NCBI GenBank assembly: GCA_031257945.1
Contig: JAIRNU010000078.1
Span: 1 to 30,680 of the forward strand
Reading direction: 5' to 3'
DNA from: Holosporales bacterium
GTDB lineage: Bacteria; Pseudomonadota; Alphaproteobacteria; BNTO01
Length of the DNA: 30,680 nucleotides
Shown here: positions 53-26,270 of the stretch, in pieces
Numbering within the stretch: the first letter of the stretch is position 1
Layout: each line of letters starts with the position of its first letter
Notes under the pieces: generated by a model
The model's database searches: none
The model's input: only the letters and a program-made list of their open reading frames with translations
Told to the model about the DNA's origin: nothing
Translations under genes and position numbers: made by a program

Positions 53-150
53 GACACCATTGCAAAAGCGCGGCAATCCGCCGTACGCAGGGTCCCTAAA
101 AAAATGTTGGGAGAGCTCACCGAAAGAACGAAGCTTTCGCAACGGGTCTA
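53..150. repeat. Degenerate copy of the RPE1-like palindromic miniature element
   Basis: 119-150 (accgaaagaacgaagctttcgcaacgggtcta) matches the end of the copy at 28209-28341. 53-68 (gacaccattgcaaaag) resembles the opposite terminal inverted repeat. The interior does not align to the other copies. Confidence 0.6.
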
Positions 151-3830: not shown

Positions 3831-3890
3831 AGTGTAAGATTCCTTAGCAGAATAACTAGTAACCAGGGGAATTTACCATATTCTTATCGT

Positions 3891-4073
3891 GCCTCAATAC
3901 CCCGCACATTCAGTTGCGCCTTGGACCGTATTTGTGTAAAAACTTAATTCCCATGCGTCGACTGCGTATCACAAGGGATAGCGGAATGCGTATGGTGCTG
4001 ATGTTTCTGCGCTAACGACCGCGTTCGGCCAAGTACATACGGCTTAACAAAAACGACCCTATGTGCTTGAGGC
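3891..4073 (+). ncRNA. ssrS: Probable 6S RNA
   Basis: About 183-nt intergenic rod. GCCTCAA/TTGAGGC, GCACAT/ATGTGC and TTGGACCGTAT/ATACGGCTTAA pair; an asymmetric central bubble and apical stem (CCATGCG/CGTATGG) follow. CCTTGGACCGTATTT resembles E. coli 6S CCCTGAGCCGATATTT. A -10-like TATTCT lies at 3879-3884. Folded by eye only. Confidence 0.55.
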
Positions 4074-4173
4074 AAGAGTTGTTGATAAAAAAAGCGAAGA
4101 CAAATGTCGCATTATGTTTTAAATATTAACTGTGTGGCCTTTAAGTAGATATATCGATATGGCGTATATTTGA

Positions 4174-5301
4174 CTGGATTCCAGCGTTTCTTCCTTGATT
4201 GATGCGATTAGTGGGAAGATTCAATCAATAAAAACTTTCTCGAATTTTGAAAAAAAGTGTGAGGAGTTGTGCTTTTACGAGGCGTTAATAGCCGATCCAT
4301 CGACGTGGAATGATGTAAAAAAGGCGAATGAACTCGCGAAAAAAAAGGCCTCGTTGCAGGAGGAAATTGAGCAAATTTCATTGTGCATACGCCAGTTCTC
4401 TGATTTGCGAGAGCTGTTGGATATGGCAAAGGAGGGCGGCGATGAGCAGGTGTTTAACGAGTGTATTACAGAATTGCAAAAGTTAGCGGCTGATGTTGAG
4501 CATATACACCTTGTGGCCCTGCTTTCCGAGGAGGCTGATAGTTCTAACTGCTTTTTGGAGATTAATTCTGGCGCTGGTGGGACCGAAGCGCAGGACTGGG
4601 TCGCAATGCTGGCTCGGATGTACTCTAGGTGGGCGGAGCGGCGCGGATTTTCGCTAGAGGTAGTCGATGAGATGATAGGAGAGGAGGCTGGTTTTAAGTC
4701 CATCAGTATGAAGATTTCTGGGCTTCGTGCGTATGGTTGGTTAAAGACAGAAAACGGCGTACATCGGCTTGTCCGAATTTCCCCGTTCGATGCTAATGCG
4801 CGGAGACATACGAGTTTTGCTTCTGTATGGACTTACCCGGAAACCAACGACGACATCGATATAAAAATAGAAGAAAAAGACTTGCGCATCGATACGTACA
4901 GGGCTTCCGGCGCTGGCGGGCAGCATGTTAACAAAACAGATAGCGCAATTCGTATTACGCACATTCCTACTGGAATTATTACACAAAGTCAGGTTGATAG
5001 GTCACAGCACCGTAATAGAGCAATGGCAATGGCCTTATTGCGCGCTAGGCTTTACGAATTGGAAATGCGGAAAAAACAGGCATTTTTGGCAGAGCAGGAA
5101 AAAAATAAGACCGATATCGCTTGGGGGAATCAGATTCGCTCATACGTTCTACAACCCTATCAGCTGGTAAAAGACTCCAGGACGGGTGTTGAAGTTGGAA
5201 ATGCGTATGGGGTACTTGATGGTGATATAGATAAGTTTCTCGAAGCATCATTGGTTGCTAGCAAAACAGGGCGTGATGGAGGGGATGGCTCCTCTGATTA
5301 A
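4174..5301 (+). CDS. prfB: Peptide chain release factor 2 (start uncertain: CTG 4174, TTG 4195, or ATG 4159 through an in-frame TGA)
   Basis: RF2-specific SPF motif (RISPFD), GGQ motif (GAGGQHVNKTDSA), GAGGTEAQDW, QIRSYVLQPY. Homology to the alphaproteobacterial RF2 N-terminal helix appears to begin at 4174. Confidence 0.96.
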   Translation: MDSSVSSLIDAISGKIQSIKTFSNFEKKCEELCFYEALIADPSTWNDVKKANELAKKKASLQEEIEQISLCIRQFSDLRELLDMAKEGGDEQVFNECITELQKLAADVEHIHLVALLSEEADSSNCFLEINSGAGGTEAQDWVAMLARMYSRWAERRGFSLEVVDEMIGEEAGFKSISMKISGLRAYGWLKTENGVHRLVRISPFDANARRHTSFASVWTYPETNDDIDIKIEEKDLRIDTYRASGAGGQHVNKTDSAIRITHIPTGIITQSQVDRSQHRNRAMAMALLRARLYELEMRKKQAFLAEQEKNKTDIAWGNQIRSYVLQPYQLVKDSRTGVEVGNAYGVLDGDIDKFLEASLVASKTGRDGGDGSSD

Positions 5302-5439: not shown

Positions 5440-5504
5440 GTATCCCTAGGATGGTATCCAAAATTTGTACAACTGCGCCAATTTCGCGCAGAATTCAAAA
5501 AGGC

Positions 5505-8500
5505 CTAGTATCGCAGGGTAAATAACGCGCGATCTAAAAGAGAACCGAAGTTAGAAACGATTTTTGTTTGCTGTAAGAAAGTATCCTTTTCGGTTAGGGA
5601 CTTCCCGCGGTCATCCATAATTGGCAAACCATGTTTATCAAATTTTGTTCGGTAAAGGAGGTTTATCACGTTTTGTCCGTCCTCTGTTGTGGTCATTTTT
5701 CCTACTAAATCCAGGAGGTCTGCAGAAAAAATTTGTTTATCTATTGTTTGGATAAAATAAAACAAAAGAGTAAAGTTATTTAAAAGGTGTTTTATTATGC
5801 TGTGAAGTGTTCTAAAACTATCGATAACTTTCGCGTGAGTGCAAATTTCGCAGCCCTCCTCTATTTGCTGCAAGTCATCCAATTTTGAGGAGATGGTCGC
5901 GATGTTAACATCCGTTTCGAACATATATAATGGAAGTAATGGGATGCAGTTTCCTTCTGAGTCAACGGTGTCAAAATCTGGGAGCGCTGAAAGTTTGATA
6001 TCAAGGAGTTCGTGTGTTGGGTGGATGTTTGGTGCCCACTTCGCAACGCCCTTAATCAATGAAATAATCGATAAAGACAGGCCGTCTATAGCGCTAGACA
6101 ACGTCGTTGGGGGAGGGCTTTGTGCATCTGGATTAGCTGAATCATTAGGATTGCCTGGAATGAATCTTTCTAACGTAGCGGCAAGCATTTCATCAAACGG
6201 CGTGTTGGCGAGGCGTTCTGCAAGTTGATCGCTAACGCAAGAATGCCAATCCCCCGCTAATAATTCTTCTGTGAATTGCTTTAATCTCACAATACTTTGT
6301 AAAAATTTAATAATAAACACTTGGTATTGCTCTTTTGTGCAATCGTTGTCATTAGTAATATTGTCGGCAAGCAACCTTATCGTAGAGGAAAGGCTATTGA
6401 TGGCAGATATTAGTTTGAGATCGCACGGTGGACGGTGCAGTACGCTTACTATGGCGTCGAACTTTCTTTTCAAAAAGTGTACTTCTTCGGCTAATGCGGT
6501 AAAAGTCGCCCCACTATACATTACATTATCGTCTGCTATATTTAGCAGCGAATCGTATATCCCATTTATATTATTGGAAATGTGTATTGCTTGGGTATAT
6601 GTTTCTTCCGAAAAAGCAGGCCTTACAAAGGCGACTTCGTCTCTAAGCCAAATAAAAACCTCCGCTAAAACGGTAATTTGTTCCCTCATAGAGTTAAGAT
6701 TGGTTTTGTATAATGCTGCTGCGTTTTGGTATTGAGGCGTGTCGTTGCCATTCCAATAATCCTCAGGTATATGGTCGAACAAAAGTGCGAATTCTAGCGT
6801 TTCCTTGGCTAGCCCAAGGAAAGCCTCGTCTAACAGGCTGGCAGCAGGGGGGGCTTCTTGCGTGCTATCCAATAATTCAGCAATATTATTGGTGTATTGC
6901 CTCCATATAGTAAGTATATCGGTGAATGGTATGCTTACCAATTGCTCTTCAAATAATTGAGCTGGATCGTCGAGGGATGCCATTACTTCAACGGCTTTTG
7001 TGAATTTTCTTAAGTGCTCAAGGATTGCGCTAACACTGTTTGCTTTTTTGATTCCCTGACTTCGAGAGAAAATATTCAGGAGTTTTATGAAAGTATTGAC
7101 GATGGAATTATTCCCTGAATAGATACCCTGTATTAGCTCTTCCTCAAAATGGAAATCAAACAGGATCCGATTATAGCAAATACTTTTTTCCTTCATCATT
7201 TGCGCAAAATTTTGGATATTCAAGGAAGTATTGTTGAGTGCAGATATAATAGATGATATTGCGGTTAATGTATCGCTGTGGGATCCATTTATTTCGATAC
7301 TTGATACTTTTGCGACAAAATTAAGCAATACTGTGTTTATATTCGCGTGGCTTGAGCATATTGAAGATAAGATTTGTTCATACGAAATTGCCTCCTTGAT
7401 GTCTTCTTCTTGGGGCAGGGCAGGGGGGATGCCGAATTCCGCAAAGAAATTAGCAGCAGATAAATAGATATTGTTTTGAAGGACTTCGTTTATGCTGTCT
7501 ATATATGATATTAGCTCGCTGCTCTGGCAGAATACTTCGAAAGAGGCGGCTGGCAAGGAGTTATACTTGGAAAAAAGAGGAACGAAGAGGCTATTTAATA
7601 ACTCGATACTGTTGCTTATTTCAAGAATATTGGAGGTATGCGTCCCGTAGATTATATCGGCTGGCTGTATACTTATGTTATTTACGTTTTCTACAATCGA
7701 ACTAAGCGCGTTGAATATCCATGCTGTTTTTTGAAGTTTCGTGTACAGCCCGTGGCAACAAAATTCCTTCAGTGCGTCGTTTTTGACGGCTATACACGAG
7801 CGAATCAGCCTCAGAATAGCATTTGCGATATTTTGCATCGATGCATTAAAATCCTTTTTTACGCAATTAGCGCATAGTAATTCTTTATCGGCTGGAAGTA
7901 TAAACGTAATTAGTGTGTTGTAGATGTTCTGGCACGACAGTATTAATGCATTTAACGCAATAGACGTTTGTTCAAAATTTTGTAAAGAGCACGCTATTGT
8001 TGGCGCCGCTGTTTCAAATGAGAGCGATAAATCGTCAATAATATAGGAAATTTTGTTTAAAAACCACGGGAATTCCTGGCAAGAAAAATCAAAAGGTTCT
8101 TGCTGTTGCAGGCTAGGCTTTGGGATGCTAGTATTTATTAGCAATTCTTCACAATCATCTTTAAATACTTGTAGTGTTTGTGCCAGCGTAATAATTTGCT
8201 CATTTATATACTTGATTCGGCAGTATTCTTCGGTTTGGGGAACATGGTTTCTCGCGTCTTCCAATGTTATTAAATCTGTTGTTATTTTATTTATATTTTT
8301 AGTTATAATGTCCGCGATATTAATAATTAAACCAGAATTATTTTGTGCTTCATGGTTTAATATTTCACCAATAAACATTTGTGCGGCGGCTAATTGCTCT
8401 TGGGCTTGAAAGAGGTGAGTAAAAGATGACAAACAGCAATCTTCCCCGATACGCGTACTTATTTCTAAAAATTCGTCTGCTAGTTTTTGGTACATATCTT

Positions 8501-11500
8501 TTAATTGCCATAAAACCACTCTAATCCCCCTGTTTTCAGCGCATAGGCAATCGTCTCGACAGCACGGTAGGCACGTATCGCATTCCCGGCATACCGCAAA
8601 TTTTTCGCAAAAGAAGCCCTCTTTCCACTTATCATACGCGCCAAGGATACTTTCAGATACATCAGCAAAAGTTTCTGATAGGCCCTTTATTTTTGCAAGG
8701 AAGTCCGATGGCGCGGTAAGCCTTTTTTCATATGTGTTTTGCATCAACCCGTGCAGTGCCGCGTAGAGGTCTTGATGTGATGACAACGTATTAGCGAAGG
8801 TTTGCACAGCTGTTGCGTACGTCATTTCGTCTGTGGCTAATGGTTTGTATACATTGAAAATAGCGGAATTTGGGAAGTATATAGTCAAAATGTCAGCTAT
8901 TTCGCTGGCTTTTACTATGATTTTCGAAATGCATTCGGCAGCTTGCTCCATATGGCATTCACCATTTATTTCGATATCCTCTATTTGCTTAATAACTGTC
9001 ACGATTCCGGGGGTAATCCCGTCCTTTTGTGTAAACAACGATATAAAGGAGTCAATTGGCAACGAGCATATATTGCTCCAATTAACTGTTACGTATTCAG
9101 AAATTCCATTTATTACTTCGGCTATATACGATGTGTAGTAATTATAATGATGCAATTGCTTTACTGTATCTAAATAGCAGTATCTGGCAAGAATTTCTTG
9201 CAAAGATTCTACACCTATTTGCGCGTTATCAATTAATTCATTCCAATTTTCTGGAATGGCGCCGGTTATACTGTCTTGCTCTGCCTCACAGTAAAAGCAA
9301 AATAACTCCATTTTCGTGGCAAGAATATCGGCTATTAATGTCTTTAACACTGGGAAAATAGGTTTTATTTGTGTCAAAAAGTTGAATAATTGGCGAACGG
9401 CAGGGAAGTGAAATTTCTTATGTTCCAATGCGGCGCATTGCCCGCAAATTGCGTCGTTAAATGCGGCGAGTTGCTTGAAACCTTCGCTTATTGCGCAAAA
9501 CAGCGTGGGGCAGCGGTATGTTGCAGGGTGAATAACGGAAGACTCCGCTGGGGGGTGAAACGCGGTTATTAGCTTATCGACAATGGTCTTTATTTTTAAT
9601 ACGTGTTCTATTTGCTCCACAGCTATGCAGTAACCATCGGATGTATCATCCCCATTGTTCTCTATATTTTCTTCTTGTTCTTGGGGGAATAATTCGTCGA
9701 TAAGCATCGATACCGCGGATACTGTTTCAAGCAGTAGCGCGCCAACAGTGGTTTCCCCTGAGGCAATGTCAATAATCTCATCGTAGCCTTTTATTTGTTC
9801 GGTCAAAATACTTGCCGAGTCCAATAATGTGAAAAGCGTGTATACAAATGTAGAGCAGCATGTCTTTTTTAATATAGTACTTTCTTGGATAAATAAATCT
9901 GGGATGCGTGTGATAGCCGTAAAGGCATCAGCTAAAAGGAACTCAATGCTATTTTTATTTTCGCGCATGCACTCTGTAGGGCTGTAATTAGCCTGCAGGG
10001 AATTTAATAGGTCAGTAAAAAGCGCAGCTAATGTTCCGAAGTACTCCGCGGATTCCGGGTGAAAGTCTTTGACTACGTAATTATCTGAAATATTAACGCT
10101 TTCTTGTATTAAATCTGCTAGTGTGTGCAAATCCGCATTAATCCTGCTGATTAATACTTCATTTGTAACTGTGGTGGTGGGGCCGGCGAAATCATCCGGT
10201 AAATATGTTGGAAGATCTTGGGCAAAAGCCCTCAGCGCCGCGTTTGTTTTTAAATAAATATTGTGCAGATTATCGTCGATATCAGTCAATCCGATGTATT
10301 CAGCGAAATTTATTACGCGGTGCGGGCACACATATTCTTCATTTAAAGAATTTATATTGCTTAATTTTGTGATAGATTGAGGAAAATTTGTTTCCAAAAT
10401 ACTAGTTATTTCTCGCATAGTATTTATAAACGTCGAATGTTCCTCTTCTTCCAAATTTTTGACGAATTGGTTTTTAGTAAATGCAATGGTTTTATTGATT
10501 GCCCTTATGCTGTTATCAATATCAAATAACTTATCGACTTTATGCGGGACGGCTGCGGTTTTTTGCAAAACATCTATAAATTCCGTGTGCGAGTTCAGGA
10601 GGCCCTCCATGGCATCTTTAAGCGGTATTGGATCAGGGACCATATCGTTTTCGCGGATATTATTGAGTATCTCGCGGAATAGTTGCGCCGCTTCTTCCCA
10701 TTTATAGTGAACAACTGTATGGTTAAATAAATCTGTAGTTTGGGCGATGTAAAAAGAATTATTGAGTGATTTTATTATTTCGATTAGCGAGGCATAATCT
10801 CTTTCAATTAGCTGGCCATTGTATGTTTGTGCAGGATAGCCAGCTTTTGGCGGCAAATATACCCCTAATGCCATAAGTTTATCCGTCAATTGTTCCACGC
10901 TATTACTTAAGATTTTATTAACAGAAGCAATAATTTGTGTTTTTTCTGGAAGTGAGGCCGCCGGCTCTGCGGGAACATCGCGGAGGATTTGCTTATACAT
11001 AAGTATTACATTATCGATAAAATTCGCGAACAATTGCACTGTTGTTTTTCTTGCGTCACTTGCGTCTATTCTTAAAAACAAATCCATCTGTTGCGCGAGC
11101 GTTTCAACTAATGCTACAAACTCGTGAAACTCTTTAGCGTATTTTTTGTAAAGCCTATCCTCCATTTGTTGAATAATTTTAAATAATTCTTCTTGAGTTT
11201 TACTTAAAGACGAAATAATCTCGTCGTAATAATATGTATTAGAATTGCAATTTTGGCACACTTTATTGGCAAAAACAGAACAAAAGCGCGCGACTGTATT
11301 CTGAAATTCTTCCACTCCGTAAAGCAACGTTACCAGGCTGTTTTGCAAATTTTGCTGGCTTTCGTAGATGTTTGACGCTTCGGCGTATTGCGTAAAAGCA
11401 TTCAGCTTACCAACAATATCGGCAGCTTTGGCATCAATTAAATCTAAGATTGCAGATACCTTTTGGCAAAAGAGCTCTTCAGAAACGATATGCGCAGTTC

Positions 11501-14500
11501 CGGGCTGCTTTTCCCCGATCAATAATAAGGCGTTACATAAGGCCTGCGTCGCACGGTATAAAAATCTGCATGTTTTTTTCATGTGCGGGGCGATGGCCGG
11601 CGCATTGCAGTGTGCATCTTCTTGTAATTGAATTTTGCCCAACTTATGGGAGGCAATATTTAAACTACATACGGCTTTATTTATATAATTAATCGCCTCA
11701 TCAATTTCTCCTTCTTCAAATATATGTTGATCTATATTTAAATACGGGATAGCGCCATCGAACCCAAACCCAAATTGCTCCAATAAGGAGAGGATGGAGT
11801 ACAGGTACTCATTGCGCGCTACACAACACGTTGGATGTCGCAAAAGGTCACAAATGGCGCTGATACCTGTGACCATGCTTTGGAACACTTGGTCAAGAGC
11901 GACGAAATGCTCTGCCGAGCAAAACCAATTCCAGTCTCCCTGAGCGTACGTACTCTGCATTCCTGAAAATGTTGCAATTATGGCGGATAATACGTCAAGT
12001 ATTTCCTGATCAAAGCACCGCTCATTTCTTTTGGTTCCATTCTCAGATTGAATAACGCCTTTCCACACGGTGATAGCACCGTCCACACTGCATAACGCAT
12101 TTTGCAAGGCGAAAAGGCTGTTTTCAAAGAATTGTACATCGCCGCGGTGTTTTTCTACTGGCTCGATAATAATCGGTTCTTTGTCGTTATCTTGTGTGTA
12201 TTGTTGTACTAAGTCGGTTATATTTTGTACAACAAGTCCTACTTTCAGAAGTTCAAGAAAAAGATTGCGGCGGTCATACTGAATATTTTTTATACTTTCT
12301 ATATGTGTTAATAATGTACTTAACTCGCTTTCGATTAAACTAAGACAAGCTTTTGTATTATTAATATTATTATTTCTAAACAAAAGTAATTTAATATCCG
12401 AAAAAATTGGGAACAAACTGATAATTTTTTTGACAGCATATGTAAGGTTCGAGTAAATCGTATTTTCATATTCAATAATTGCTGAGTTGGAACTTTGTAC
12501 CCCGTCCGCAACATTTGCCAGCAAATCCAGAGTATCTGCTTTAAAGGTCTCCGTCGGTCTTCCACGAATCGCACAAACTTCCCCATTTATCAGGAGGAAT
12601 TTTATGTACTCCATGGCGTCTATTTGTTCAGCCAAAACAGTATTAACCCCTTGCCACGAGGACTGTATGTTTTCATAAAAATCGACGTCTAAGTTGGCAA
12701 GGTTTTTTGCGAGGGCACCGGGTTGCACTTGGTACTCGTTTGGCGGGTCTTTATTTATTGTAAAAGTATTCTTTATGTCGTTCATTTCATCCATAATACG
12801 AAGTGAATCGGAAACAATTGCCTGTAGTATATCTAAAATATAATTATCTTTGTCTATTTCGGTAAAACAAATTTGGTAATTCCCAGATTCCATTCTTGGA
12901 ATTATTTTGTTGGAATTTTCACATATTTGTTGAAAGATTTCCTTTATATTATCGATATATCCCGAAATATTTTCTGAACATTCTGTATCCAAAGAATATT
13001 GTTGAGCCGCCAATATTATTTCTTCCATAACACTATTAATTCCCTCGTAGTTGCTGGAGATAGCGGTTATTTGATCAAGGTACTTTTGGCAGGCGTCGTT
13101 ATGCCCGTACGCTAGCCCTATTTTTTGCCAGGAATCAATAATGGCCTCAGACGGGAATAACGTTTCAGCAATTTCTTTTTCTAATGGCGTTACGTTGTAT
13201 GTGAAGCGTATCTTGGCCCAGCGGGACAGATGAAACGCCTTATAAAATATCTTTGAAACGATATCACTGGATACACCTGTTTCAATGGCATCTTGCAAAA
13301 TAGTATTAAACAAAGCGTCATCTTTTGTTTTATTGTGTTGCAGCGCTTCTACATCTTCTTTTATTTGCTGTTCTGAGAAGACGACTTGAGGTAATTGCTC
13401 AAACTCAACCTGTTTTTCAAGGTTCATATAGTGCAGGAAAGCTTTTTGGCTTTCGTCTATTTGTCGCAAAAATTGTACAAGTGCGGGGAAGCCACACTCC
13501 TGCGGTCCCTCACCGATTTGTTCAAAAAAATTGTTCCAAGTGTCAAACAGAGAAGTTATTACTGGCATTAATTCTGGCGCGTGAAGTATTTCCGTAATTT
13601 TGAAAAGTCCAATTAATTTTTGGATATTTAGGTTGTTTTGCAAAATATTATGCACCGCCTCAGACAACATCGAATATTCCAACGCCTTTATCGTGTCTTT
13701 TATCGTGCAAAAACTTGCTTCTAATGAATTAGTCCATTGCAGCATATCATTTACAGACGCGAATATTTGCACCGGGTTGCAACTTTCGCAAGTAATGTGC
13801 TTGCTCTTCAACAAAGCAAATGCCGTGGCCACAGTGTTAACCGCAGTTTGCAAATTATGTACTCGATCTTCGAATGCTTTCTTATATGGAATGGGAACAC
13901 CGATTGGCGGCGATACGTAGTAGGCTAACGTTTCGCAAATGTCGCGTATTTTGTGCAGAGTTTGTTCGATTTTGTACAAAAAAACTTCTTTTTTGGCGCA
14001 ATTATCGATATTTTCTACCGCTTTTAGGTTTAGCGATTGCGTTGCGGGGATCCCGTACACACCCTCTATACATAATAGGTTTTCATTTATAACTGTGGTG
14101 CTGTTTTTCACACTACTAAGCAATGCCGAATACGCCGCGTCTAAGCAATCGAAATCATCTACTTTGCCAGATAGCGCAGTGCTTATGTTAAGCAGCTCTG
14201 CCGTTATACAATCCAAGGCAAACAGGATGTCGGCGTCTTGCTGCGCAGCAAGTGTTTGCTGCGCCTTTGGAATAATTTTGGCAAAAGAGTGCGCACAAAA
14301 GTAGAGTTGAGTACGGATTTGATCAATAATCGTGGCGGTCTCCGTACAGCAAGTCGGATGCTTTAATTGTGTAGAAAAGTTATGTATTGCTTCTTGTATG
14401 TTTGCCGTATTATATAGTAAATTACTTATATTTTCTGATATTATTTGATTTATATTTATAAAATCGTAGTCGATTTTGTATGGAGCCAATAGCCATTCGT

Positions 14501-17500
14501 CGGACAGCATAGTAAATCTCTTCGCTATTTCCATCAAAGCATTGCGTATTCTAATGTCTGTAGATTCAGTGTGAATGTCCTCAAATATCGGGACTGTAGT
14601 ATTTGCAATAGCGTGTTCGCCGAAGGCATTCTGAGCCCAATCGGTAATCTCCTCTAAAATTTTTATGTGTTGTTTGCGAAGGGCCTCCGTTGCCTTTCCA
14701 TGCTTTTCAATGGCGATACTTTCGTGCAATATATCCGTATTGGTTTTAAGTTTTAATGAAGTTTTCGCAAAGTTTGTGAAGAAAGTTTTAGCTTGTGAAA
14801 GAGTGCTGTGTTGTATTAACTCAGTATAAATTGATAGTTGTTCTATTATTGCTGCAATTTCGTTGTGGAAATGCCCTTCGTAAGAGGGCTCTTTATGTTT
14901 TATAATGTTGAACACGCGGCTAATATTTAATTTTATGTCATTAATACCTCTCGCCAAAGAATAAAGTATAAGCGAACATTCATGAACATTTGGTATTTTG
15001 ACAAGGCTGGTGGCCAAAGCCACATCGCAAATTTGATTTTGCAAAAAATCGAGCGTCCCAATTAATGTCGATAATAAATCCACTATTTCTTCGTGGAAGC
15101 GAAGTATATCATGTCCGGCCAAAGTGTTCGCGAGCTCATTTATTGCATCTGCGATGTAAAGAGTATACTTATATATACGCGTTAGTGAGACGGCAACCTC
15201 AGGCGCTCTCGCGAGCGGATATACAGGAGGCGGATCGCTTTTTGTTATTGCGAGGACGTGGTCGGCGCACAGAGACATTGCGGTCACTATTCCCTGAAGT
15301 GCATTTGATAGGCCCGTAAGCGGCGGGTTATTCTTGTATTCTGACATAGTGTGCAGCTCTTGCTGCGTGGTTTCCAGGTCTGGGCCGCTACCAACCAAAT
15401 CTGCGAGTTCGTTTCTCACGGTATCAGCTGGCTCGCCAAAATCCAGATCCTCCACGAAAAACGGGCTCAGCGTTTTTGCGGCGGTTTCGACTTTTTTCGC
15501 GGCCTCTTCCAACAAAGTTACGCTATCTAAGATAATGCTTATGTCGTTTACCTGTGATAGCGCGATAAAGATATCCTCGAAATCGTCGGAAATTTTATTA
15601 ATTTCGTCTTTTATTTTTGCGGATTTCTCCTCAAAGGCCGCTTGATTATGCAGCAAAGATTGCGGTGCTGTTGCTGTGGCAAAGAGCGCGGCCAGGCCCT
15701 TCAGCCTCAAAGCAATAGCTTGAATTTGGCTTAGATTTTCAGGCGTTATAACGTGCTTATGGCTTATAATAGCCTCGTTTATTATGGCAGCATCAACGTG
15801 GTGTGCGGCTAGGGCTTCGATTATGCGGTCCCAGTAATGCGCGGCAATACTAGGCGTATACGGGAGAATTTCGACAAAGCTACCGGATACGAAGTTAAAC
15901 ATTTCGAAGATTTCTGCTACTTTTTGCAAATTAATGCTCTTTTGGGCGCTATGAGCTGGGTGATTTAGCGCAGAAAATAACGGGGCGCTCATTGTGTCCA
16001 AAAAAGCCGCAAACTCCAATAAGGCGTCATTCATGTCCGTATCCGATTGAAAAGCCAAGGCCGTCAGCTGCGAAATAAATTCCGAGCAAGACAACACGCC
16101 GCTGCAAATTCGGCCTAACGCCGCGCCATCCTTTTTATCGCAGCAAAATATTGCTAGAGAGTCCTTCAGGAAAATAAACGTGACTTTGACATTGCTAACA
16201 GCGTCAATAGCTTTTTCGAAAAAGTCATTAAAGTCGTCGGCGTTAGCGTCTGCCCGATCAATACATTGTTGGCAAAATGTTCCAAAAGGTGATGCTTTAT
16301 CAATAAGATTGTCTAAAAATGCAACTACAGAATCCAAAGTACTTATAATGTTATCGATAGCGCTAAAACTTGAAGAATTAAATGGCGTTGTTAAGCCGTA
16401 ACTTTGCACAAAATGCACTGTGTTCTTTATTTCTAAATAAATTGCATTAATGGCATTTACTATATTATTGTTCACCTCTTTAACTAAAAGGCAAAATACA
16501 TCAGCTTGGGTAAGTTCTTCTACTTGATGTACCTGTGGAACTTCTTCATCAGATATAGTCGCATTGGTTCCGTTAAGTACGGCGACAATGCTGCGCAATG
16601 CAGTGTTAATATAATCGGATTTGCATTTGCCCGTTGGACTAATCGGTTCATCGTAAATTGTTTGAATATAATCGAAGTATTGTTCTAAAGATTCTTTATC
16701 AAAAGCAGCAGCAATATTGTTTAATATAGTATTAACATCTAGCGTATTGTGTAGGGGATTTGTGATAATATAATTTATATTATTAGCAGTATTTGTGAGC
16801 GCAATTGCAATGTCCTGAAGAGTTAGTACTAAGGAGGCACAACAAAGTGATGCATCATAACAATCGTGTATTTCCATTACTTGCTGATAAAGTAAAAATA
16901 ACGCTTGATGAAGGGATGTGTAGTTTTCAATCCAATCCTCGTAAGTAACGATACCATTATTGTGTGCATCGATTATTGTGTATATATTTTCTAAAAATGG
17001 GGTAAGTGCCTGTGATTCGATGTTTTCGATTTGCTCGGCGATAGCTTTGAGGCTAGACGTGATTTCCCCATTTCTAACAACTTTTGCTGCATTATTTTTT
17101 AATTCCGTCACAACAGAGCTCAGGGCGCTGGCATATTCCTCAAAAATAAGGGGAAGCAGCGCGATATCCTGGCAAAGTACGGCCTCACTAAAAAGCGGTG
17201 GATCAGCAATCAATGCCGTGTTATCTTCCTCCCATTCCCCATAAAACGAATCCGTTACGACATCTTTTAGTTCTGGTTCGAACGTAACTGCGGCGTCGAA
17301 GATTTGCGCATATGCTAAAAGTGCGGCGTGGTAATCCTCGGAATCGTCTCCTATTTCTATACTTTTAAAATCGGCAATAAATGTTGCAATTTTATCTGAT
17401 ATATACTTTACGGCGTTATTTACTTTCTTGTTGTTGAAATCATCGATATTTGCTGAAGAATTTTGTATTGCTGTTGTTATTTGATCGCATGATGATATTT

Positions 17501-20500
17501 GCTTTTTTAGTGTATTCAGGAACGTCCTAAAAGAAAAAGATATTCCCTGCCAGTAGCGTACTTCAAGATCAGCCATTATTGGCTCGATTACTTCAACGAT
17601 ATTGTCCATTTCGTTGCCAATATCTCGCAGGATATATTTATCAAGAGAATCAGTTCTTGCGCAGAATTGTATTTGACTATTAGAAAGGTCGTGTAGCGCA
17701 GCTTTCACCGCTAACAATGCATCCCTTAATGACGCGAACGAATCTAATACTTCTTTAGAGTATGTTTGGTCAATATCCATGTTTTGTCGAATGTGTTGTT
17801 CGAGTATCGCAAAGTAACCATCCGAAGGATTACTTAATTCCCGCATATTTTGTAAAATTTTCGTAAGATAAACCGCAATTTTTTCATGCTGGACCGCGTG
17901 CAGGGCATAGCTACTATAATCTGACGGCAAAGACCAAGCCGTTGCCTCGATAATATCGCTGCAAGATGCGATGGCATTATAACAATCAGGGAGACTGTCG
18001 TTTATATCCGAAAGCATTGGGGCAATGCTTTCCGCTCTATCCCGGAAAAGGCCGGCGGGAGCATGCTGAAAAGCGGAATCTATAGATGAGATATAGCTAC
18101 CGATATTAGTTATTTCCTCCGAAATTTTGGTTATTTGCTCGGCGATTAATTGCTTTTGTGGCGATGGCGTCGCACCAATATCATCATCGGTTTCTGGTAA
18201 CGATGCCACGCACACGTTAATTTTTAATAAAATATTTCGTACAGCGGTGGCAACGGTTTCTCCGCATGGCGGGTTGTTGTTGTTTGCAATAACTTGCCCT
18301 GCCAAAGAAACAATATCTTTTAATATTTTCTCAATATTTATATATACACCGTTGAATATATCAGTCTCTTGTATGGCATTAATAATATATTGTACAAATA
18401 TCCCACTAGTAATTATTAAATCAGAAACTATAGGATGTGGCGCTAATTCTGTTTGCGCAAACCAATGGCACAGTTTAGAAAAATTTGAAAGTATGTCCTC
18501 GCTCACCTCTATAATTTTGGCCAAATTGATTTCGTATTGCTCTTGCGTAATTTGCGCTAAAAAGCTTCTGTTTGTTACTTTTTCTACGTCAAAAAGGGGT
18601 TCTTTCGTCCAAATTGCGGCTTTTATTAACGTCGTAATTTTTTGTATAGAGGAAATAACATTGCCGTTAACTTTTTGCGCAACGATTTTTTTGATGCTGT
18701 CAGCGAGGCTATAAACAAATTTATCAATTTGTGGAGTATTCGTTGGGTCAATAATATCGTTGTCTAATAAAAATTGCAGTACTTGGGCGAGTTCTTCTAA
18801 TGGTCCAAGTAATTTATACTGTGCCTCTACTTTCTTTTTAATTTTAAATTCTACATAAGTTTCAGCTAACAAACCCAGTGCATCAGGCTTTATCGCTTGT
18901 AATAAATCCTGTTGGTGTGCGTGCAATGGTTTCTCGCAAAAAACGCACTGGGAAAGGTGCTCCAAACCGTCGCTGTTTTGCAAAAAATCTTGCAACTTTG
19001 TTTTCATTATATGTATGCGTGTGTGGGCCTCGCTTAACTGCTGATGTATTTCTTCCGAATAAATTAGGTATTCGCCTTTCCAATAAATCGCAAGGTCATT
19101 AATCGATTCAAAAATTGCATTGAGTTTTGCAGTTATACTTGTTAATGCAAATGTTACTCTTTCGCTAGCGGGGATTTTATCGTAGTCCTTTTTGAACGGC
19201 TCTATATCAATGTTGTAACACAGCAATATAGTTCTGATCGCATTGCAAAGGTCCTCTGTTTCACTTTCTATTTGGTCAATACTTTGTTCAACAGTAGGCA
19301 GGGACAGTGCATCTGGTATGGTTTTTAAAATACTGTTTATACTAGATATATACTCGTTAATAGGTAGCGCTGGAATAGCTCCGTTCTTTTGTAGATTTAC
19401 TATTTGCTTAAAATATATTGCTAAATTAGTAATATTTTCCTCTATATTAATTATTTTTGCAGTATATATACGGCACGCCTCATTATCCAAAAGCTTTTGC
19501 ACAAAAAGGCCGATGTTCTGCCGTATTTGCCCGCAAATTTCGCGAATTCCCCCCAGAATGGCAGCTTCTTCAGCTTTGCGGAATGCGTTGCACTCAGGGC
19601 ACTTCGCATAAAGTATAGTTGAGTCTTTCATTATATCATTAATGAAAGAGGAAATGTGCTGTAGAGAGTCTACTGCATTTATACTGTAAAGATTTGTATT
19701 TATATTAGCGAAAATTGTGGCGATATGCTGTTCAAGTAAAACACAAATACTTTCAAGAATTTCTTTAATTAAATATAAATCCCCCATTCGTTGAGTACAG
19801 GAAAATTTGAATGGAGGGATAGTATTAGCCGCTTCAGCCGTCTCAGCAACCTCAGCTGTTCTAATTAAACGGTCCAAAAATTCGCTTATTCCAGGAAGAT
19901 CTAACGGGGCGTGGCCTTGGGGTTGTAGTAATAGCTGGTTCTCTAACAGCGCCATTACCGTTTCATCCGCCGCGGCCCGCAGTATATCTTCAAAGCGCAA
20001 TAATTTTTCCAATATATTGTGTGTATATAGCGCAGTATTCGCGCAGCATTTATCGCTAATACTTTCGGCGATTTGCTTTATGGCAAAGGAAAGTTCTTTG
20101 GTAATATCGTGCAACTCCTGCAAAGCAAGTGTTTCTTGTATCGAAATGCTTTGGTTTGTACATTTCTGGCATGAGTACTTGGATGTAATGTCCTCTAAAA
20201 AGGGCAGGCTATTATCCGCGCCTAAGAAACTATTCGCGATATTTACAATTAAGTTTTTGTATTCCGTGTTTACCGCGGCGTCGAAATCTTTTTCTAGAAT
20301 ATCTGCAATATCGTACAGTTGTGCCGTTATCCCCTTTAATAATACGGTATACTTTCGCAAGTATACGTCTTTGTAATCCTCAAGCGGCACACTGAAATAA
20401 TCGAAATCGAAATATGGTGCCGCGAAGTCTATATCGTCGTATTTTTGGGCGATAGCGTAGATCGCAGCACCAACGGCGGCAATTTTCTCTTCCGTTGGTC

Positions 20501-23500
20501 GGGTGCGCAGTGTGTCGAGCAAAGTATTAAGACAGCCAAAAGACTTCGCCAACACTTCTTTTGCGGACTTTGTACCTAAGTTCGATTTTATTAAACTTAA
20601 GGCATACGATATTGTATTTGTGACTTGAAGCGCCCGCGCGAAAGACATTTTTTGTTGATTTTCGCAAGTATCCGGAAGTCGAGCGTTTTTATCCGTATCA
20701 TCCGATATTTCGTTTAAAATTGCGATTAATTGTGGGGAGTTAATATTACTTTCCGCACATAGTATTTCGTGATCATATATCGTCCCCGCCAATGAATGCA
20801 ATACGGACGATGCCTCAGAAAGGGCTCCGCGAATGCCGGCGTTCTTATGATTCTGTCCGCTAATAAATGCTGTATAGTACGATTGTTTTAACGCACCGCT
20901 TAATGTACTTAAACAATGGTACAAGTTCAGGCATTCGTTGCAACTCTCCTCTATACTTTCAAACACGTCAGGGGGAGCAAGCGCAATCGCCCAAGCCCAT
21001 ATATCCTCTATCCACGCCAGCACGTCCCCCATTTCTTGCTGAAGACTTGCGTTTTCTACATCTGTACTAAACGCCTCAAATAAACGCGCATTGTGAAGGA
21101 GTATTCTTGCCGTTTGTACAATACACCTTTCCACGGTCGCCCCAGCATCCAACAAATTTGCCTCTTGGATTTGCTGGGCAATTGCTTTAGCTATGTTAGC
21201 GCACCGCCGGAAGATATTCTTCTTTGCCGTTGTGCAATGGCGCTCCTCTCGAGGATACAAAGCGTCATACAGGTAGAGGGCTTGCGCGGCCATTCCCTTA
21301 ATCTTTTCCTGAATTTCCCTTATTATAAGTATTTGTTCTTGCGAATAGCTATTCACCGGGCCCTCTATACCAATTTCTATATTAGCTATTCCGTAAAGTT
21401 CCGCACTTATGCGTTGGATCGCCTCCCGCTCCTCCATCGAAAAATTGTAATTATTTATAATAGTATTATTGCAAATATGTACAATTTTATCCCCGATATT
21501 TGTTATTTGTTGTAGTATCCTTCTCAAATATACATTATCTGTATTCTCGTTTTGTGGTATTGACGGCGGAGCATGAGGGACAGGATCAACATCGTAGCAA
21601 TCCTTCCAATAATTAAGTTCTTTAAAAATATCATCCAAGTTTATCCCCGTTTCGCTACTTACCCCTGCCTCAAGAGCTCTTTTTATATTTTCAATACCAG
21701 ATAAAATATAAGAAATATTAATGCTTTGCTCCGATTGTATTAACCGATCAACTATATTCTCTATTTTGTACAATACCGCCGTTATATCATATAGTCTTTG
21801 CCTTATGAATGGTGGGGTTTGCGACTGCTCTGCCAGTACTTTCAACAAAGTCTCCCAATATGTTGAAGTATCAATTATATCGCTACGAAACTGCTCCGGA
21901 TTTCTTATTTCTAATTGTATGCCGCTGTGGTAATTTAGCATATATTTAAAATTCGTAAAGTAATCGGCGTACTCTTTCCAAAAAATTTTGTAAATATTGG
22001 CCTTTTCGGCCAGACCTGCGATCCCCTGACAATCAAGCAGTTCGAGCCCCTCCGAAAATGAAGTCACAATATACTGTACAATCGAATTATACAAAGATGC
22101 GGCTTGTATTAAATTTGGCGCAATAGTTTGTAGATTTTCAATACTTGGGGGAATTGGGACGAACGCGCCACCCTCTCCAATAATTTCGCGTAAATCCATC
22201 CAAAGTTGTGCGATTCTCGCATTGCTCAGCCATGCCTCCGGCTTTTGCAAAAAATTTGAGAGAACCCCGTGCCACCGGTCAAAAATATCCAGGGCCCCAG
22301 CCTTATCTGGATTATTGTAAATTAAATCCCCGACAGCCTGCGTTGTGCAAAGCAAAATTTGCGGAAGCCTTATGCACGCCTCTACCTGATAATAATTTTC
22401 GAAAGAATCCCAAGTCGCCTGCAAAAAATCGAAAGCATCCCGTAAGCCGCTATAAGCGGTTTGCAGTGTGACGGACAAAATATCGCTTCCACTGTTATTT
22501 TCGCAAGACGCCGCTGCATTGCGCAAGACATCCATTACGCCTTCCGCGAAATCGCATATTACTTGCGCCTTAAAGTCTATTGGCTTCCAAAGGTCCGACG
22601 GCGGGGCCGTTGCATTATACGCAAAAGTATTAATATTAGCGGATATTTTCTGAATATACTGCATAACTTTATGACGGATAACTTCTACTAGTTCGTGCGC
22701 ATTTATTTCACTATATCGCAAAATATCTGTAACTTTTTTGCTGCGCCTGTAGTCCCCCCAAACGGCCCCCAATACTTCGTTTACAGTAGAAAATATATCA
22801 CTATAATTATCATCCACTTTTATTTTTTGTGTTATTCCTTGGACAACGCTGTTATAGGAAGTAAATATTTTGTCATGTATATCGGGTAACTCGTGCACAA
22901 CCCGCTTCGTAATGGCTTCGATATTGGCAACAATATCCAAAAACGGCAAAGCCAAAGCCGCGGCTGCCTCGCAATCCTTGTAAGCATTAATATTTTTATC
23001 TACCGTAAGTATTGCTGTTTGTATTTCTCGCAAAAGGTATATCTTTTTCGCCAAAAAGTCTTTCTTAATTTCAATATTTTTTATTGGGCTTTGTAGCAAA
23101 TCCACATACTGTTCCGCCGCATCAATTACATTTTGCATTCCAGAACAAAACGTTTTGAAAAACGAAGAGAGGGCGGGCAGATCGTCTTTGGCAATACTGT
23201 TAAAAAAACCAATATTCCCCTCTAGTATTTTGACATCATTTAAAATCCCGTTTATTAACATAATAATTTGCGGGAATATATTTTCTAATGTAAGCCCTTC
23301 CACGGAAATATCTGCGAAAGTATCTATACCATTTTCCAAAATATCCCATAAATTTTTAACAAGTACCGTAAATCCTGCGAAAAAATCACTGGCCAAATCT
23401 ACGTGCGTATTTAATTCTCTTATTACAAGTAATAATTGGTTATACTCGTTCTGCGAATTATATAATGGCGCCGAACACAAGGCGTGTATTTCATTTGATA

Positions 23501-25068: not shown

Positions 25069-25647
25069 ATGGACAATCCTATTAATTTGCGGATAGGGGG
25101 AATTTCATTCAAAGTCCCGATTTCGCGCAGCGGAAATGGCCTCCTATCGGCAACAGTATCGAGAACCCCAGAGTGGGTGATTATGTTCGATGGTGGGTTA
25201 ACCGCCAGCACGTTAGAAGAATACCCAGATTTCGTGGTATTACTTGGCTTTTTTTCAGAACAAAGCCGGTATGTGTCGGGCAATGTTAACGGCTCCATAT
25301 TCACTTCTGGAAGTGTTCAAGGCGGAGAATACATATTCATTCTACAAAACGGAGAGCACGGTCCAAAGCTTGAACAACAAATGTATAGCGGCAAAAACGT
25401 CCCGTGCGTCAGACTTATACGGTTAGGATGGTCAGAAGGCGCTTTATCTGTTCTGCAGACAATTACACTTACGGTAGTGCGTATTACTCGTTTCATGCAG
25501 AACATCCAATATATTGTGATTGTTGTACAGGCTGGTGCCCGGACTAACGATATTTCAGATTTTAACCAGGCTGATGGTGCTTGTGCGGGTCACAAGATAA
25601 GTACAGTAAATTATTCGGAAAATAAACTTGAGTTCGAGAGTCAATGA
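25069..25647 (+). CDS. hcp: Hcp-like (T6SS inner tube, TssD family) protein 1 with N-terminal extension
   Basis: Colinear by eye with P. aeruginosa Hcp1: GSVQ~GKVN, GPKLEQQMYSGKNVP~TPNLMMACSSGKHYP, TITLTVVRIT~IITLKEVLVS, FNQADGACAG~PQKADGAKDG, VNYSEN~WNIRQN. Confidence 0.75.
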   Translation: MDNPINLRIGGISFKVPISRSGNGLLSATVSRTPEWVIMFDGGLTASTLEEYPDFVVLLGFFSEQSRYVSGNVNGSIFTSGSVQGGEYIFILQNGEHGPKLEQQMYSGKNVPCVRLIRLGWSEGALSVLQTITLTVVRITRFMQNIQYIVIVVQAGARTNDISDFNQADGACAGHKISTVNYSENKLEFESQ

Positions 25648-26270
25648 TACTTAGTGATAACAAATCACAAGCCCAGGGGAACGGCCCGTACGAAATCGCT
25701 AATGTCCCAGGAATGGGGGATTTGAAGGTAATAGTTGTAAGCGAATCAACAAGCCAATTCTTCAACAATCCAAACGGGTCGAAATCGCCCTGGTGGATGG
25801 TTAGCATGAAAGCAGATAACAAAGAGGTGCTATCGTCTACTGTTACTGCCGCGCCGTATAAAGATTACACGGAATTATTTGGGTTTTACATAGAATCGTA
25901 CGTCGTTTTTTCATCAACAATTGCTAACAAACTGTTTGTATCGTCGATAATACATGAAGATTGTATTATCGTTATTCCAAATGCCGGTTATGTGGCGGAC
26001 CTGGAGCAAAAAATGCACTCTGGGGTATTGTTTGGCATGATTACGATTGTGTGCCTTGGGTGGATTAAGGGGACGTTGCAAGTGTACCATCGTATAACGT
26101 TTACTAATTCTTTTCTGGTTTCAATTATTCCTGACCTAGACCGCGCATTTGTTCGCTTTAGGGTTGTAAAGAAGAACCATACTTTTATTCCATTTTCTCA
26201 GGCCGGCGTAAAAGCGGGGCAGTCTATGTGCCTTATCGATTTGACGACTGATACGACGTCAGCTGGGTAG
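25644..26270 (+). CDS. hcp: Hcp-like protein 2, diverged paralog of the upstream gene
   Basis: ATGA overlap with the upstream gene. Shared motifs: LEQKMHSG/LEQQMYSG, LGWIKGTL/LGWSEGAL, ITFT/ITLT, LFGF/LLGF, FSQAGVKAGQ/FNQADGACAGH. Confidence 0.7.
   Translation: MILSDNKSQAQGNGPYEIANVPGMGDLKVIVVSESTSQFFNNPNGSKSPWWMVSMKADNKEVLSSTVTAAPYKDYTELFGFYIESYVVFSSTIANKLFVSSIIHEDCIIVIPNAGYVADLEQKMHSGVLFGMITIVCLGWIKGTLQVYHRITFTNSFLVSIIPDLDRAFVRFRVVKKNHTFIPFSQAGVKAGQSMCLIDLTTDTTSAG

What the first reader, a model, noticed from the sequence alone, without database searches (positions are those of the whole stretch)
6200..21300. Cryptic ~190-245-aa cysteine-anchored repeat running through the giant protein
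CC pairs (or CY) occur at + coordinates 7755, 8433, 9174, 9855, 11823, 14346, 16140, 16839 and 20043. The gaps are 678, 741, 681, 1968, 2523, 1794, 699 and 3204 nt, i.e. single units or multiples of about 600-740 nt. CxxC motifs (CANC 7863, CFYC 9288, CQNC 11247, CESC 13779, CQQC 16263, CVFC 18936, CPEC 19590, CQKC 20160) precede the CC-equivalent position by about 36-41 codons. A further single Cys (YC/EC/FC) follows the CC about 70-78 aa later. HPTCC occurs twice. This implies roughly 20-25 ancient, highly diverged helical-bundle modules stapled by disulfides or metal ions. I recognise no matching repeat family.
Basis: partly seen in the sequence, partly recalled or inferred. Interest (0 to 1): 0.7.

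Follow-up and report, generated by a model that had tools for sequence, protein, structure and literature searches.

The report
Cysteine-clustered helical repeat in giant protein
A 6457-residue exported protein of an uncultured termite-gut endosymbiont (Holosporales) is built from about 22 very old copies of a roughly 216-residue helical module of no known family, and each well-kept copy carries a strictly conserved cluster of six cysteines that probably locks the module shut.

Summary

- **Cysteine pattern.** All listed CC and CxxC sites exist. Their number and spacing far exceed chance (permutation P<5e-5).
- **Repeat.** Profile-profile comparison of orthologue alignments shows true internal homology, also with every Cys masked. 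I count 19 in-register units at 90% probability or more (residues 1547-6049, spacing 180-247 aa). Weaker units bring the total to about 22-26.
- **Fold.** One unit folds with high confidence (pLDDT 92.7) into a bundle of 27-30-residue helices, with the cysteines at helix ends and in loops.
- **No known relative.** Pfam, NCBIfam, PDB, AlphaFold DB clusters and the ESM Atlas give no match. Only 22 relatives turn up among 1.84 billion proteins. Most (14 of 22) exceed 5,600 residues; the rest are shorter proteins or pieces.
- **Correction.** By co-variation, each CxxC belongs with the preceding CC-C-C, not the following CC. The resulting six-Cys set (CC, +72, +117, then CxxC) gives 8 of the 12 strongest couplings among 19,503 column pairs.
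- **Location.** Family members carry N-terminal signal peptides.
- **Still open: disulfide or metal.** Pairwise coupling and two-Cys units favour disulfides. The absence of DsbB (10 genomes) and of VKOR and an active DsbA where searched, plus Cys-to-His swaps (CxxH), favour a metal. Function is inferred: a stapled envelope or surface rod.

The parts
5505..24878 (-). Giant gene, 6457 codons plus stop. It is a single-copy gene found in most genomes (8-9 of 10) of an order-level termite-gut Holosporales lineage.
   Evidence: source is a termite gut metagenome; a relative is named 'hypothetical protein [Holosporales bacterium]'
24786..24878 (-). N-terminal signal-peptide-like leader, aa 1-31: basic residues, then a hydrophobic stretch ending IGC. 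The public gene call (6419 aa) starts at Met39 and omits it.
   Evidence: Sequence read directly. Twelve of the other 13 long family members printed begin with a basic n-region plus a hydrophobic core; G003 was printed from an internal Met, and its leader shows in the open frame. P0002 length. The leader is the clearest and longest hydrophobic stretch; the window-19 scan flags only two other marginal positions, at aa 638 and 2676-2677.
23832..24785 (-). N-terminal non-repeat region, aa 32-349, conserved among relatives (motifs around GSRG and CW). No known family.
20259..23831 (-). Degenerate N-terminal units, aa ~350-1540, with about five weak matches. This genome lacks about 1000 aa here compared with its orthologues.
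6732..20240 (-). Core tandem array, aa 1547-6049: 19 in-register units at 90% hhalign probability or more. Two weaker units at aa ~3045-3440 fill the only gap. Period 180-247 aa.
19590..20048 (-). Six-Cys set A: CC 1611/2, C1694, (C1712), CxxC 1760/3
16263..16844 (-). Six-Cys set B: CC 2679/80, C2752, C2796, CxxC 2869/72
13779..14351 (-). Six-Cys set C: CC 3510/1, C3578, C3627, CxxC 3697/3700. Eleven of the 14 aligned family members (all but this genome, G004 and P0016) have CxxH here.
11247..11828 (-). Six-Cys set D: CC 4351/2, C4424, C4471, CxxC 4541/4. Five of the six are invariant in 14 orthologues at about 18-25% identity; C4541 is Cys in 13 of 14.
9288..9860 (-). Six-Cys set E: CC 5007/8, C5084, C5123, CxxC 5194/7. 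Four are invariant in 14 orthologues; C5007 and C5197 are Cys in 13 of 14.
7863..8438 (-). Six-Cys set F: CC 5481/2, C5553, C5600, CxxC 5669/72. Invariant in 14 orthologues.
8541..8609 (-). Eight-Cys insertion, aa 5424-5446 (C-x5-C-x2-C-x2-C-x2-CC-x3-C-x-C), sitting in the CxxC loop of one unit. Conserved in orthologues.
7245..7970 (-). The unit folded alone, aa 5637-5878. Helices at 2-22, 38-67, 73-98, 112-138, 151-177 and 197-223. CxxC sits in a loop, CC at the break between helices A and B, and C148 in the C-D loop.
   Evidence: pLDDT 92.7, pTM 0.81
5508..6128 (-). C-terminal region, aa 6251-6457, with a family-conserved motif (G-x-P-V ... L-F ... D-x-x-G-x-P) near the end. No known family.
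25069..26270 (+). Two small beta-rich paralogous genes transcribed divergently from the giant gene. The same arrangement occurs in the closed relative genome G001. Context only.

Best explanation
The gene encodes a Sec-exported, all-helical protein of about 700 kDa, belonging to a family with no described relatives. After a leader and an N-terminal region of about 320 residues, the chain is a head-to-tail array of about 22-26 anciently duplicated modules of about 216 residues. Each module is a bundle of 27-30-residue helices.

In well-kept modules, six cysteines gather at one pole of the bundle:
- a vicinal CC at the start of helix B;
- one Cys just after helix C (+72);
- one Cys in the long loop before helix E (+117);
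- the CxxC in the loop that opens the next module.

I take this cluster to be a covalent staple, most likely up to three disulfides. The best-supported pair joins the first Cys of the CC to the +72 Cys. The staple would pin the loops and helix ends so that the long thin protein resists unfolding and proteolysis.

I infer that the whole molecule is a rod or fibre in the periplasm or on the cell surface, serving the envelope or host contact. It takes about 2% of a 1-Mb genome and is kept in nearly every genome of the lineage.

**Shown:** the repeat, the fold class, cysteine conservation and co-variation, the leader, and the narrow distribution.
**Inferred:** the disulfide chemistry, the location beyond the inner membrane, and the function.
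For: **Repeat**
- hhalign of 240-aa slices of a 7-orthologue alignment gives P down to 1.8e-11.
- Score of 40 or more in 84/900 pairs, against 4/900 with reversed templates.
- With Cys masked, 40 of the top 160 pairs still score 40 or more, the top-ranked ones over the same or nearly the same aligned ranges.
- An iterated HMM finds 343 units in 23 family proteins. In the window's protein they tile head to tail.

**Fold**
- The 4-unit model is all-helical, pLDDT 72.
- The single unit with a 44-row alignment reaches pLDDT 92.7 and pTM 0.81.

**Cysteines**
- Cys is the best conserved residue between orthologues: 53%, against 32% for Leu.
- 48 Cys columns are kept in at least 11 of 14 proteins at about 18-25% identity.
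- Mean-field DCA on 306 units ranks columns 72-144 first, 73-144 second and 73-190 fourth of 19,503 pairs.
- In the re-phased alignment, the six Cys columns give 8 of the top 12 couplings. The CxxC and the CC of the same unit are uncoupled (ranks 1057-3272), which serves as an internal control.
- Columns 72+144 lie on the same i+j register as the non-Cys contacts of the B-C hairpin (93-118, 90-125).
- Units that keep only the 72+144 pair exist. One is invariant in 14 orthologues (C5234 and C5308).

**Export**
- Signal-peptide-like N-termini across the family (G003's leader).

**Novelty and distribution**
- No family or fold match.
- 22 hits in 1.84e9 proteins.
- Present in 8-9 of 10 genomes of the order.
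Against: - **No known oxidation catalyst.** The DsbB Pfam model found nothing in any of the 10 genomes of the lineage, including a one-contig genome. VKOR was not found in this genome. The only DsbA-like gene is a thioredoxin-fold lipoprotein without a CxxC.
- **Largely anoxic source.** The DNA comes from a termite gut metagenome.
- **Metal-like substitutions.** His replaces the second Cys of the CxxC 6.2 times more often than expected. His and Asp are enriched at the second Cys of the CC. This is typical of metal ligands.
- **Dense Cys insertion.** Eight Cys in 23 residues looks more like a metal-thiolate cluster than four disulfides.
- **No distances.** No S-S distances could be measured, because the tools return no coordinates.
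- **Unknown fate after export.** The route beyond the inner membrane is unknown, and there is no expression or localisation data.
- **Limits of the co-variation.** DCA on about 220-300 related repeats can confuse 'whole Cys set present or absent' with direct contact.
Confidence: 0.55

Rival explanations
1. Same architecture, but the six-Cys pole is a metal-thiolate centre (Zn, perhaps binuclear) rather than disulfides. The thiols stay reduced because the lineage has no Dsb system and lives in a low-oxygen host.
For: - No DsbB in 10 genomes, no VKOR in this genome, and no active DsbA found where searched.
- CxxC changes to CxxH in 20 units, and in 11 of 14 orthologues at aa 3700.
- His and Asp are enriched at column 73.
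- All six Cys columns are mutually coupled rather than falling into three clean pairs.
- The eight-Cys insertion resembles metallothionein.
- The source is a termite gut.
Against: - Units with only two Cys (72+144) are common and conserved. Two thiols cannot hold a metal alone.
- Both residues of a vicinal CC rarely bind the same ion (established structural knowledge, not tested here).
- Aromatic residues often replace a lost Cys. One example is F3510/Y3578 lost together in two related genomes.
Confidence: 0.33
2. The protein is not exported. It would be a cytoplasmic scaffold or a cargo of the lineage's type VI secretion system, linked to the two small divergent genes that another first-stage note calls Hcp-like.
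For: - The T6SS sheath gene TssC is present in this genome and in relatives.
- A review notes that Holosporales T6SS appear to lack a recognisable Hcp (PMC11909080).
- The small gene pair sits next to the giant gene in two genomes.
- The public gene call starts after the leader.
Against: - The leader is conserved across the family (G003's leader).
- The giant gene is not in the T6SS cluster. TssC lies on another contig here and about 117 kb away in the closed genome.
- The small proteins match no Hcp model in Pfam or NCBIfam, and no Hcp chain among PDB sequences.
Confidence: 0.07
3. There is no true repeat. The pattern would come from amphipathic-helix composition plus scattered cysteines.
For: - Plain self-BLAST gives only marginal hits, best E=0.001.
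- Reversed decoys reach about 13% of the real hits in the iterated HMM.
- PDB profile hits are to designed coiled coils.
Against: - The reversed-template control is far below the real signal.
- The top-ranked pairs keep the same or nearly the same aligned ranges when Cys are masked.
- Units tile end to end, most of them matching most of the model.
- The Cys spacing is non-random at P<5e-5.
- The paralogue-enriched alignment raised AF2 confidence from 72 to 93.
Confidence: 0.02

Closest known systems
Ebh / Mrp-type giant helical rod proteins of staphylococci (FIVAR-GA repeats); comparison from my own knowledge
   Same: A bacterial envelope protein in the megadalton range, made of dozens of tandem all-helical bundle modules, and thought to form a long rod.
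   Different: No sequence or Pfam relation. The unit here is about 216 aa rather than about 126 aa. Ebh has no cysteine cluster. The host is Gram-negative, and the protein has only an N-terminal leader.
Giant cross-linked repeat adhesins, for example the 7651-residue Mobiluncus mulieris adhesin (PMC10619420, listed)
   Same: By far the largest protein of a small proteome. Many tandem domains, each locked by an internal cross-link (in that protein: ester, isopeptide, disulfide or thioester).
   Different: Those domains are Ig-like beta folds. Here the modules are helical and the cross-linking residues are six cysteines.
Spectrin, talin-rod and vinculin-type helical bundle repeats of eukaryotes
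   Same: Tandem three- to five-helix bundles of long helices, joined by continuous linker helices.
   Different: No Pfam hit. Structural matches cover only one hairpin (Z about 9, aligned about 65 residues). Whole-unit TM is 0.42 or less. Those proteins are cytoplasmic and lack a Cys cluster.
Cysteine-rich envelope proteins of Chlamydia (OmcA/OmcB); comparison from my own knowledge
   Same: An obligate intracellular bacterium that invests in exported, cysteine-rich structural protein.
   Different: No homology. The chlamydial proteins are small, beta-rich and cross-linked between molecules. Here the co-varying Cys sets lie within one chain.

Membership tests
Any Pfam / NCBIfam repeat or domain family | Score above the curated cut-off of a family model | tested here: not met
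   Whole protein in two halves against Pfam: best E=0.015, far below the cut-offs. Both termini against Pfam at E up to 10. NCBIfam.
Spectrin / FIVAR-GA / other helical rod repeats | Three-helix bundle units of about 106-126 aa that family profiles or fold comparison can recognise | tested here: inconclusive
   No Pfam hit. VIA-align and Foldseek match only single hairpins or give TM of 0.3 or less. Unit length is 216 aa with six helices.
Alpha-solenoids (HEAT / ARM / TPR) | Stacked two- or three-helix repeats of 30-50 aa forming a superhelix | tested here: not met
   The period is about 216 aa. The four-unit model hits cohesin SA2, exportins and similar proteins only at TM about 0.1. No Pfam hit.
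Twin-CX9C / CX3C (CHCH) disulfide helical hairpins | Two CX9C or CX3C motifs facing each other on an antiparallel hairpin | tested here: not met
   The motifs here are CC, single C and CxxC, placed at helix ends and in loops.
Structural zinc sites (zinc ribbon or knuckle, Zn2Cys6) | Four to six Cys/His ligands brought together; metal present | not testable with these tools
   Ligand-like co-variation and Cys-to-His swaps are seen. No coordinates or metal analysis were available.
Sec-exported protein | N-terminal basic n-region, hydrophobic core and small-residue cleavage site | tested here: met
   Read directly in the window's protein and in 12 other long family members, and in G003's open frame. 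No dedicated predictor was available.
Type 1-secreted RTX-type giant adhesins | Ig-like beta repeats, Ca-binding nonapeptides, a C-terminal secretion signal and no N-terminal leader | tested here: not met
   The models of the four-unit stretch and of one unit are all-helical. No RTX or Ig Pfam hit. An N-terminal leader is present.

The most novel reading that the evidence does not exclude
The lineage has no recognisable Dsb machinery, yet keeps about 130 cysteines in one exported protein. They are organised in about 15-20 six-thiol poles plus a metallothionein-like insertion.

The most novel reading is that this is not just a passive staple. The megadalton rod would be a redox- or metal-responsive element of the envelope. 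It could store or buffer metal, or stiffen and relax with the redox state during transmission between anoxic hosts. The in-chain CxxC motifs would act as the built-in oxidoreductase relay that the genome otherwise lacks.
Probability: 0.12. Interest if true: 0.85.

Novelty: new variant of a known kind. Interest (0 to 1): 0.62.

Why it matters
- **A new protein module.** The module is about 216 aa, helical, and carries a six-Cys pole. It folds with high confidence yet matches nothing in Pfam, PDB, AlphaFold DB clusters or the ESM Atlas.
- **A large genomic investment.** It fills a single gene that takes about 2% of a 1-Mb endosymbiont genome and is kept across an order-level, uncultured lineage of Holosporales.
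- **A lead to an unknown biology.** Nothing is known about how these bacteria build their envelope or meet their hosts. The largest, best conserved lineage-specific protein is the obvious place to start.
- **A clean biochemical question.** How does a bacterium with no DsbA/DsbB/VKOR found keep dozens of conserved cysteine clusters in an exported protein?

Tried and rejected
- **Self-comparison.** Plain self-BLAST of the whole protein returned only the identity hit. Windowed BLAST gave marginal hits only. hhalign self-mode on the full alignment printed nothing.
- **Circular first HMM.** The first HMM was built from CC-anchored seeds, so it matches those seeds by construction. I did not use it as evidence.
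- **Word-index search.** The search for giant relatives found only the protein itself.
- **ESM Atlas by features.** No usable hit.
- **Four-unit model.** Foldseek gave only generic solenoids at TM about 0.1.
- **Single-unit model.** Nothing beyond hairpins or TM of 0.42 or less in PDB, VIA-wide, AFDB clusters and the Atlas. This does not prove the fold is new.
- **PDB sequence profiles.** Profiles of the unit and of both termini gave only designed coiled coils and coronavirus HR1 at weak E-values, which I take as compositional.
- **Paired loss of Cys columns.** Among 14 orthologues the test was not significant, because relatedness alone gives perfect correlations (1.4% of far pairs against 2.2% of near pairs) and the alignment is noisy outside the C-terminal half.
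- **Hcp reading of the two neighbour genes.** No support from Pfam, NCBIfam, a PDB profile or a genome-wide Hcp search.
- **Expression.** No RNA holder is listed among public runs.
- **Context of the longest relatives.** The look-up of encoding contigs refuses proteins over 5000 aa.
- **Literature.** Searches found no paper on this family.


Full report
**What is there**

The window's dominant feature is one open reading frame on the minus strand, 5505-24878, of 6457 codons. It has 2.1% cysteine (136 residues). No Pfam or NCBIfam family reaches significance. The flanks hold ordinary housekeeping genes: RF2, FabD, FtsQ and L25.

The assembly is 1.04 Mb in 110 contigs, 84% complete. The DNA occurs in a termite gut metagenome. 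A close relative of the protein is deposited as 'hypothetical protein [Holosporales bacterium]'.

**Check of the observation**

I permuted the 136 Cys positions 20,000 times:
- CC: 9 observed, 2.9 expected (P=0.002).
- CxxC: 14 observed, 2.8 expected.
- CC followed by a Cys at +68..83: 7 observed, 0.8 expected.
- CxxC 36-51 residues upstream of a CC: 4 observed, 0.02 expected.

None of the last three was reached in any permutation. The pattern is not chance.

**Relatives**

A six-frame search of 41 related genomes found open frames of 7300-7700 codons, at 17-27% identity, in 7 of 9 other genomes of the same family. It found none in 31 other families of the class. The GTDB order holds only this family. 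8 of its 10 genomes match a two-unit profile, and a ninth (G002) holds a contig-truncated copy.

A profile search of 1.84 billion representative proteins returned 22 hits. Fourteen exceed 5,600 residues; the rest are shorter proteins or pieces. Most match the two-unit profile in 4-9 separate stretches. The gene is single-copy and takes about 2% of each small genome.

**Is it a true repeat?**

Plain BLAST against itself is marginal, so I used profiles. I aligned seven orthologues, cut the alignment into 240-residue slices and compared all non-overlapping slices with hhalign.
- The best pairs reach P=1.8e-11.
- Among 900 random pairs, 84 score 40 or more and 30 score 50 or more. With the template reversed, a harsh control for helical proteins, the counts are 4 and 0.
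- With every cysteine replaced by X, 40 of the 160 best pairs still score 40 or more, the top-ranked ones over the same or nearly the same aligned ranges. The similarity is therefore not just a cysteine pattern.

An HMM iterated over 23 family proteins collects 343 units, 15-25 per full-length protein. Reversed decoys reach 44.

Matching that unit profile back to the orthologue alignment gives 19 in-register units at 90% probability or more. Their anchors lie at aa 1611, 1802, 2012, 2205, 2449, 2679, 2913, 3510, 3734, 3930, 4141, 4351, 4576, 4777, 5007, 5234, 5481, 5707 and 5941. Two weaker units fill the 2913-3510 gap, and weaker ones lie on both sides. Spacing is 180-247 residues.

Compared with its orthologues, this genome has lost about 1000 residues (four to five units) from the N-terminal third.

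**Fold**

- A four-unit model from six sequences is all-helical, with mean pLDDT 72.
- One unit (aa 5637-5878) was modelled with a 44-row alignment of orthologous and paralogous units. It reaches pLDDT 92.7 and pTM 0.81.
- Its helices lie at 2-22, 38-67, 73-98, 112-138, 151-177 and 197-223.
- The CxxC sits in the loop before the second helix. The CC sits at the break between the second and third helices. The +76 Cys sits in the loop after the fourth helix.

The gain in confidence from adding paralogous units is itself support for the repeat.

Neither model has a convincing structural neighbour:
- Foldseek against PDB finds no hit at E of 0.001 or better.
- VIA-align against 48,161 chains finds only single hairpins, at Z about 9 and about 65 aligned residues.
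- AlphaFold DB clusters give TM of 0.31 or less.
- The ESM Atlas gives TM of 0.42 or less.

**The cysteines**

Between orthologues at about 18% identity, Cys is the most conserved residue: 53% retained, against Leu at 32% and Trp at 30%. In a 14-protein alignment, 48 Cys columns are kept in at least 11 proteins. Of the six-Cys sets in the C-terminal units, set F is invariant in all 14, and sets D and E each miss a Cys in only one (P0017) or two cells.

Over 343 units the Cys-rich model columns are 34 (62%), 37 (33%), 72 (61%), 73 (60%), 144 (58%) and 190 (30%).

Co-variation gives three results:
- **Within a unit,** columns 72, 73, 144 and 190 co-occur (phi 0.35-0.56). The CxxC columns are independent of them.
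- **Mean-field direct-coupling analysis** ranks 72-144 first, 73-144 second and 73-190 fourth of 19,503 column pairs.
- **Across the unit border,** column 190 co-occurs with column 37 of the next unit (phi 0.53). I re-phased the alignment to run from column 60 of one unit to column 59 of the next. The six columns 72, 73, 144, 190, 34' and 37' then give 8 of the 12 strongest couplings. CxxC and CC of the same unit rank only 1057-3272.

So the functional set is CC, C(+72), C(+117) and then the CxxC that opens the next unit. In the window the complete sets are 1611-1763, 2679-2872, 3510-3700, 4351-4544, 5007-5197 and 5481-5672.

Helix topology agrees with a cluster. The helices alternate down and up, so the start of helix B, the end of helix C, the end of the long D-E loop and the loop after the next unit's first helix all fall at one pole. 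Columns 72+144 also lie on the same antiparallel register as the non-Cys couplings 93-118 and 90-125.

This is inference. The tools return no coordinates, so I could not measure distances.

**Disulfide or metal?**

For disulfides:
- Long family members begin with a basic-hydrophobic leader. The leader is the clearest hydrophobic stretch; the scan flags only two marginal positions elsewhere (G003's leader). The cysteines therefore fold outside the cytoplasm.
- The strongest coupling is pairwise.
- Units keeping only the 72+144 pair are common. One of them is invariant in 14 orthologues.
- Two adjacent cysteines rarely bind one ion (my own knowledge).

For a metal:
- The DsbB model finds nothing in any of the ten genomes, one of them closed.
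- VKOR is not found in this genome.
- The only DsbA-like gene is a thioredoxin-fold lipoprotein without a CxxC.
- The habitat is largely anoxic.
- His replaces the second CxxC cysteine 6.2 times more often than expected. The site at aa 3700 is CxxH in 11 of 14 orthologues.
- Eight Cys in 23 residues resembles a thiolate cluster.

I put disulfides at a little over one half and a metal centre at about one third.

**Function**

Nothing here tests function directly. The function is inferred from several features: a leader, about 5,000 residues of stapled helical bundles, conserved non-repeat ends, single copy, and retention in reduced genomes. Together these point to a structural rod or fibre of the envelope or surface, possibly a host-contact organelle.

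The T6SS sheath gene exists in this genome, but on another contig. In the closed relative it lies about 117 kb from the giant gene.

Two small beta-rich genes are transcribed divergently from the giant gene, here and in G001. Another first-stage note calls them Hcp-like. A review states that Holosporales T6SS seem to lack a recognisable Hcp (PMC11909080), so the question is worth settling elsewhere.

**Verdict**

This is a new, very old and strongly diverged helical repeat module with a conserved six-cysteine pole. It fills a giant exported protein that is found in most genomes of an uncultured endosymbiont lineage. It is a new variant of the known kind 'giant tandem-repeat envelope protein'. 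The chemistry of the cluster and the role of the protein remain open, and both are directly testable.

Noticed in passing
window 24765-24878 (aa 1-38 of the giant ORF): The public gene call for this protein (6419 aa) starts at Met39 and drops the signal-peptide-like leader. The leader is visible when the frame is read from the GTG at 24878. It ends in a lipobox-like I-M-I-G-C.
   Followed up: partly
G000 contig C15, L022:676-1713 (-): A 345-aa lipoprotein-like protein has a DsbA/thioredoxin fold but no CxxC active site. It lies about 4 kb from the T6SS sheath gene TssC. It is the only DsbA-like gene found. The DsbB model found nothing in any of the 10 genomes of the lineage, and the VKOR model found nothing in this genome, the only one searched for it.
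   Followed up: partly
window 25069-26270 (+): Two overlapping small paralogous genes (192 and 208 aa, beta-rich, no leader) are transcribed divergently from the giant gene. The same pair sits beside the giant gene in the closed relative genome G001. No Hcp or other family hit by sequence.
   Followed up: partly
window ~21600-23700 (aa ~400-1100): This genome's protein is about 1000 residues shorter than its orthologues. The loss is confined to the N-terminal third: aa 400-1100 here correspond to about 1800 residues in relatives.
   Followed up: partly
window 5508-5800 (last ~90 aa): A C-terminal motif is conserved across the family (G-x-P-V-x-x-L-F ... D-x-x-G-x-P, followed by S-L-L). It has no match in Pfam or PDB. 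It could be a sorting or anchoring signal.
   Followed up: no
window 11247-14351 (aa ~3500-4600): In the middle of the array, Cys-rich and Cys-poor units alternate with a period of about 420 aa. Across the family, the presence of CC in neighbouring units is weakly to negatively correlated (phi -0.05 to -0.19 among the four CC-to-CC comparisons). This hints at an older two-unit super-repeat.
   Followed up: partly
window 28422-29423 (+): A BspA-type leucine-rich-repeat protein (LRR_5, E=1.7e-40). It is a typical host-interaction candidate and lies 3.5 kb from the giant gene.
   Followed up: no
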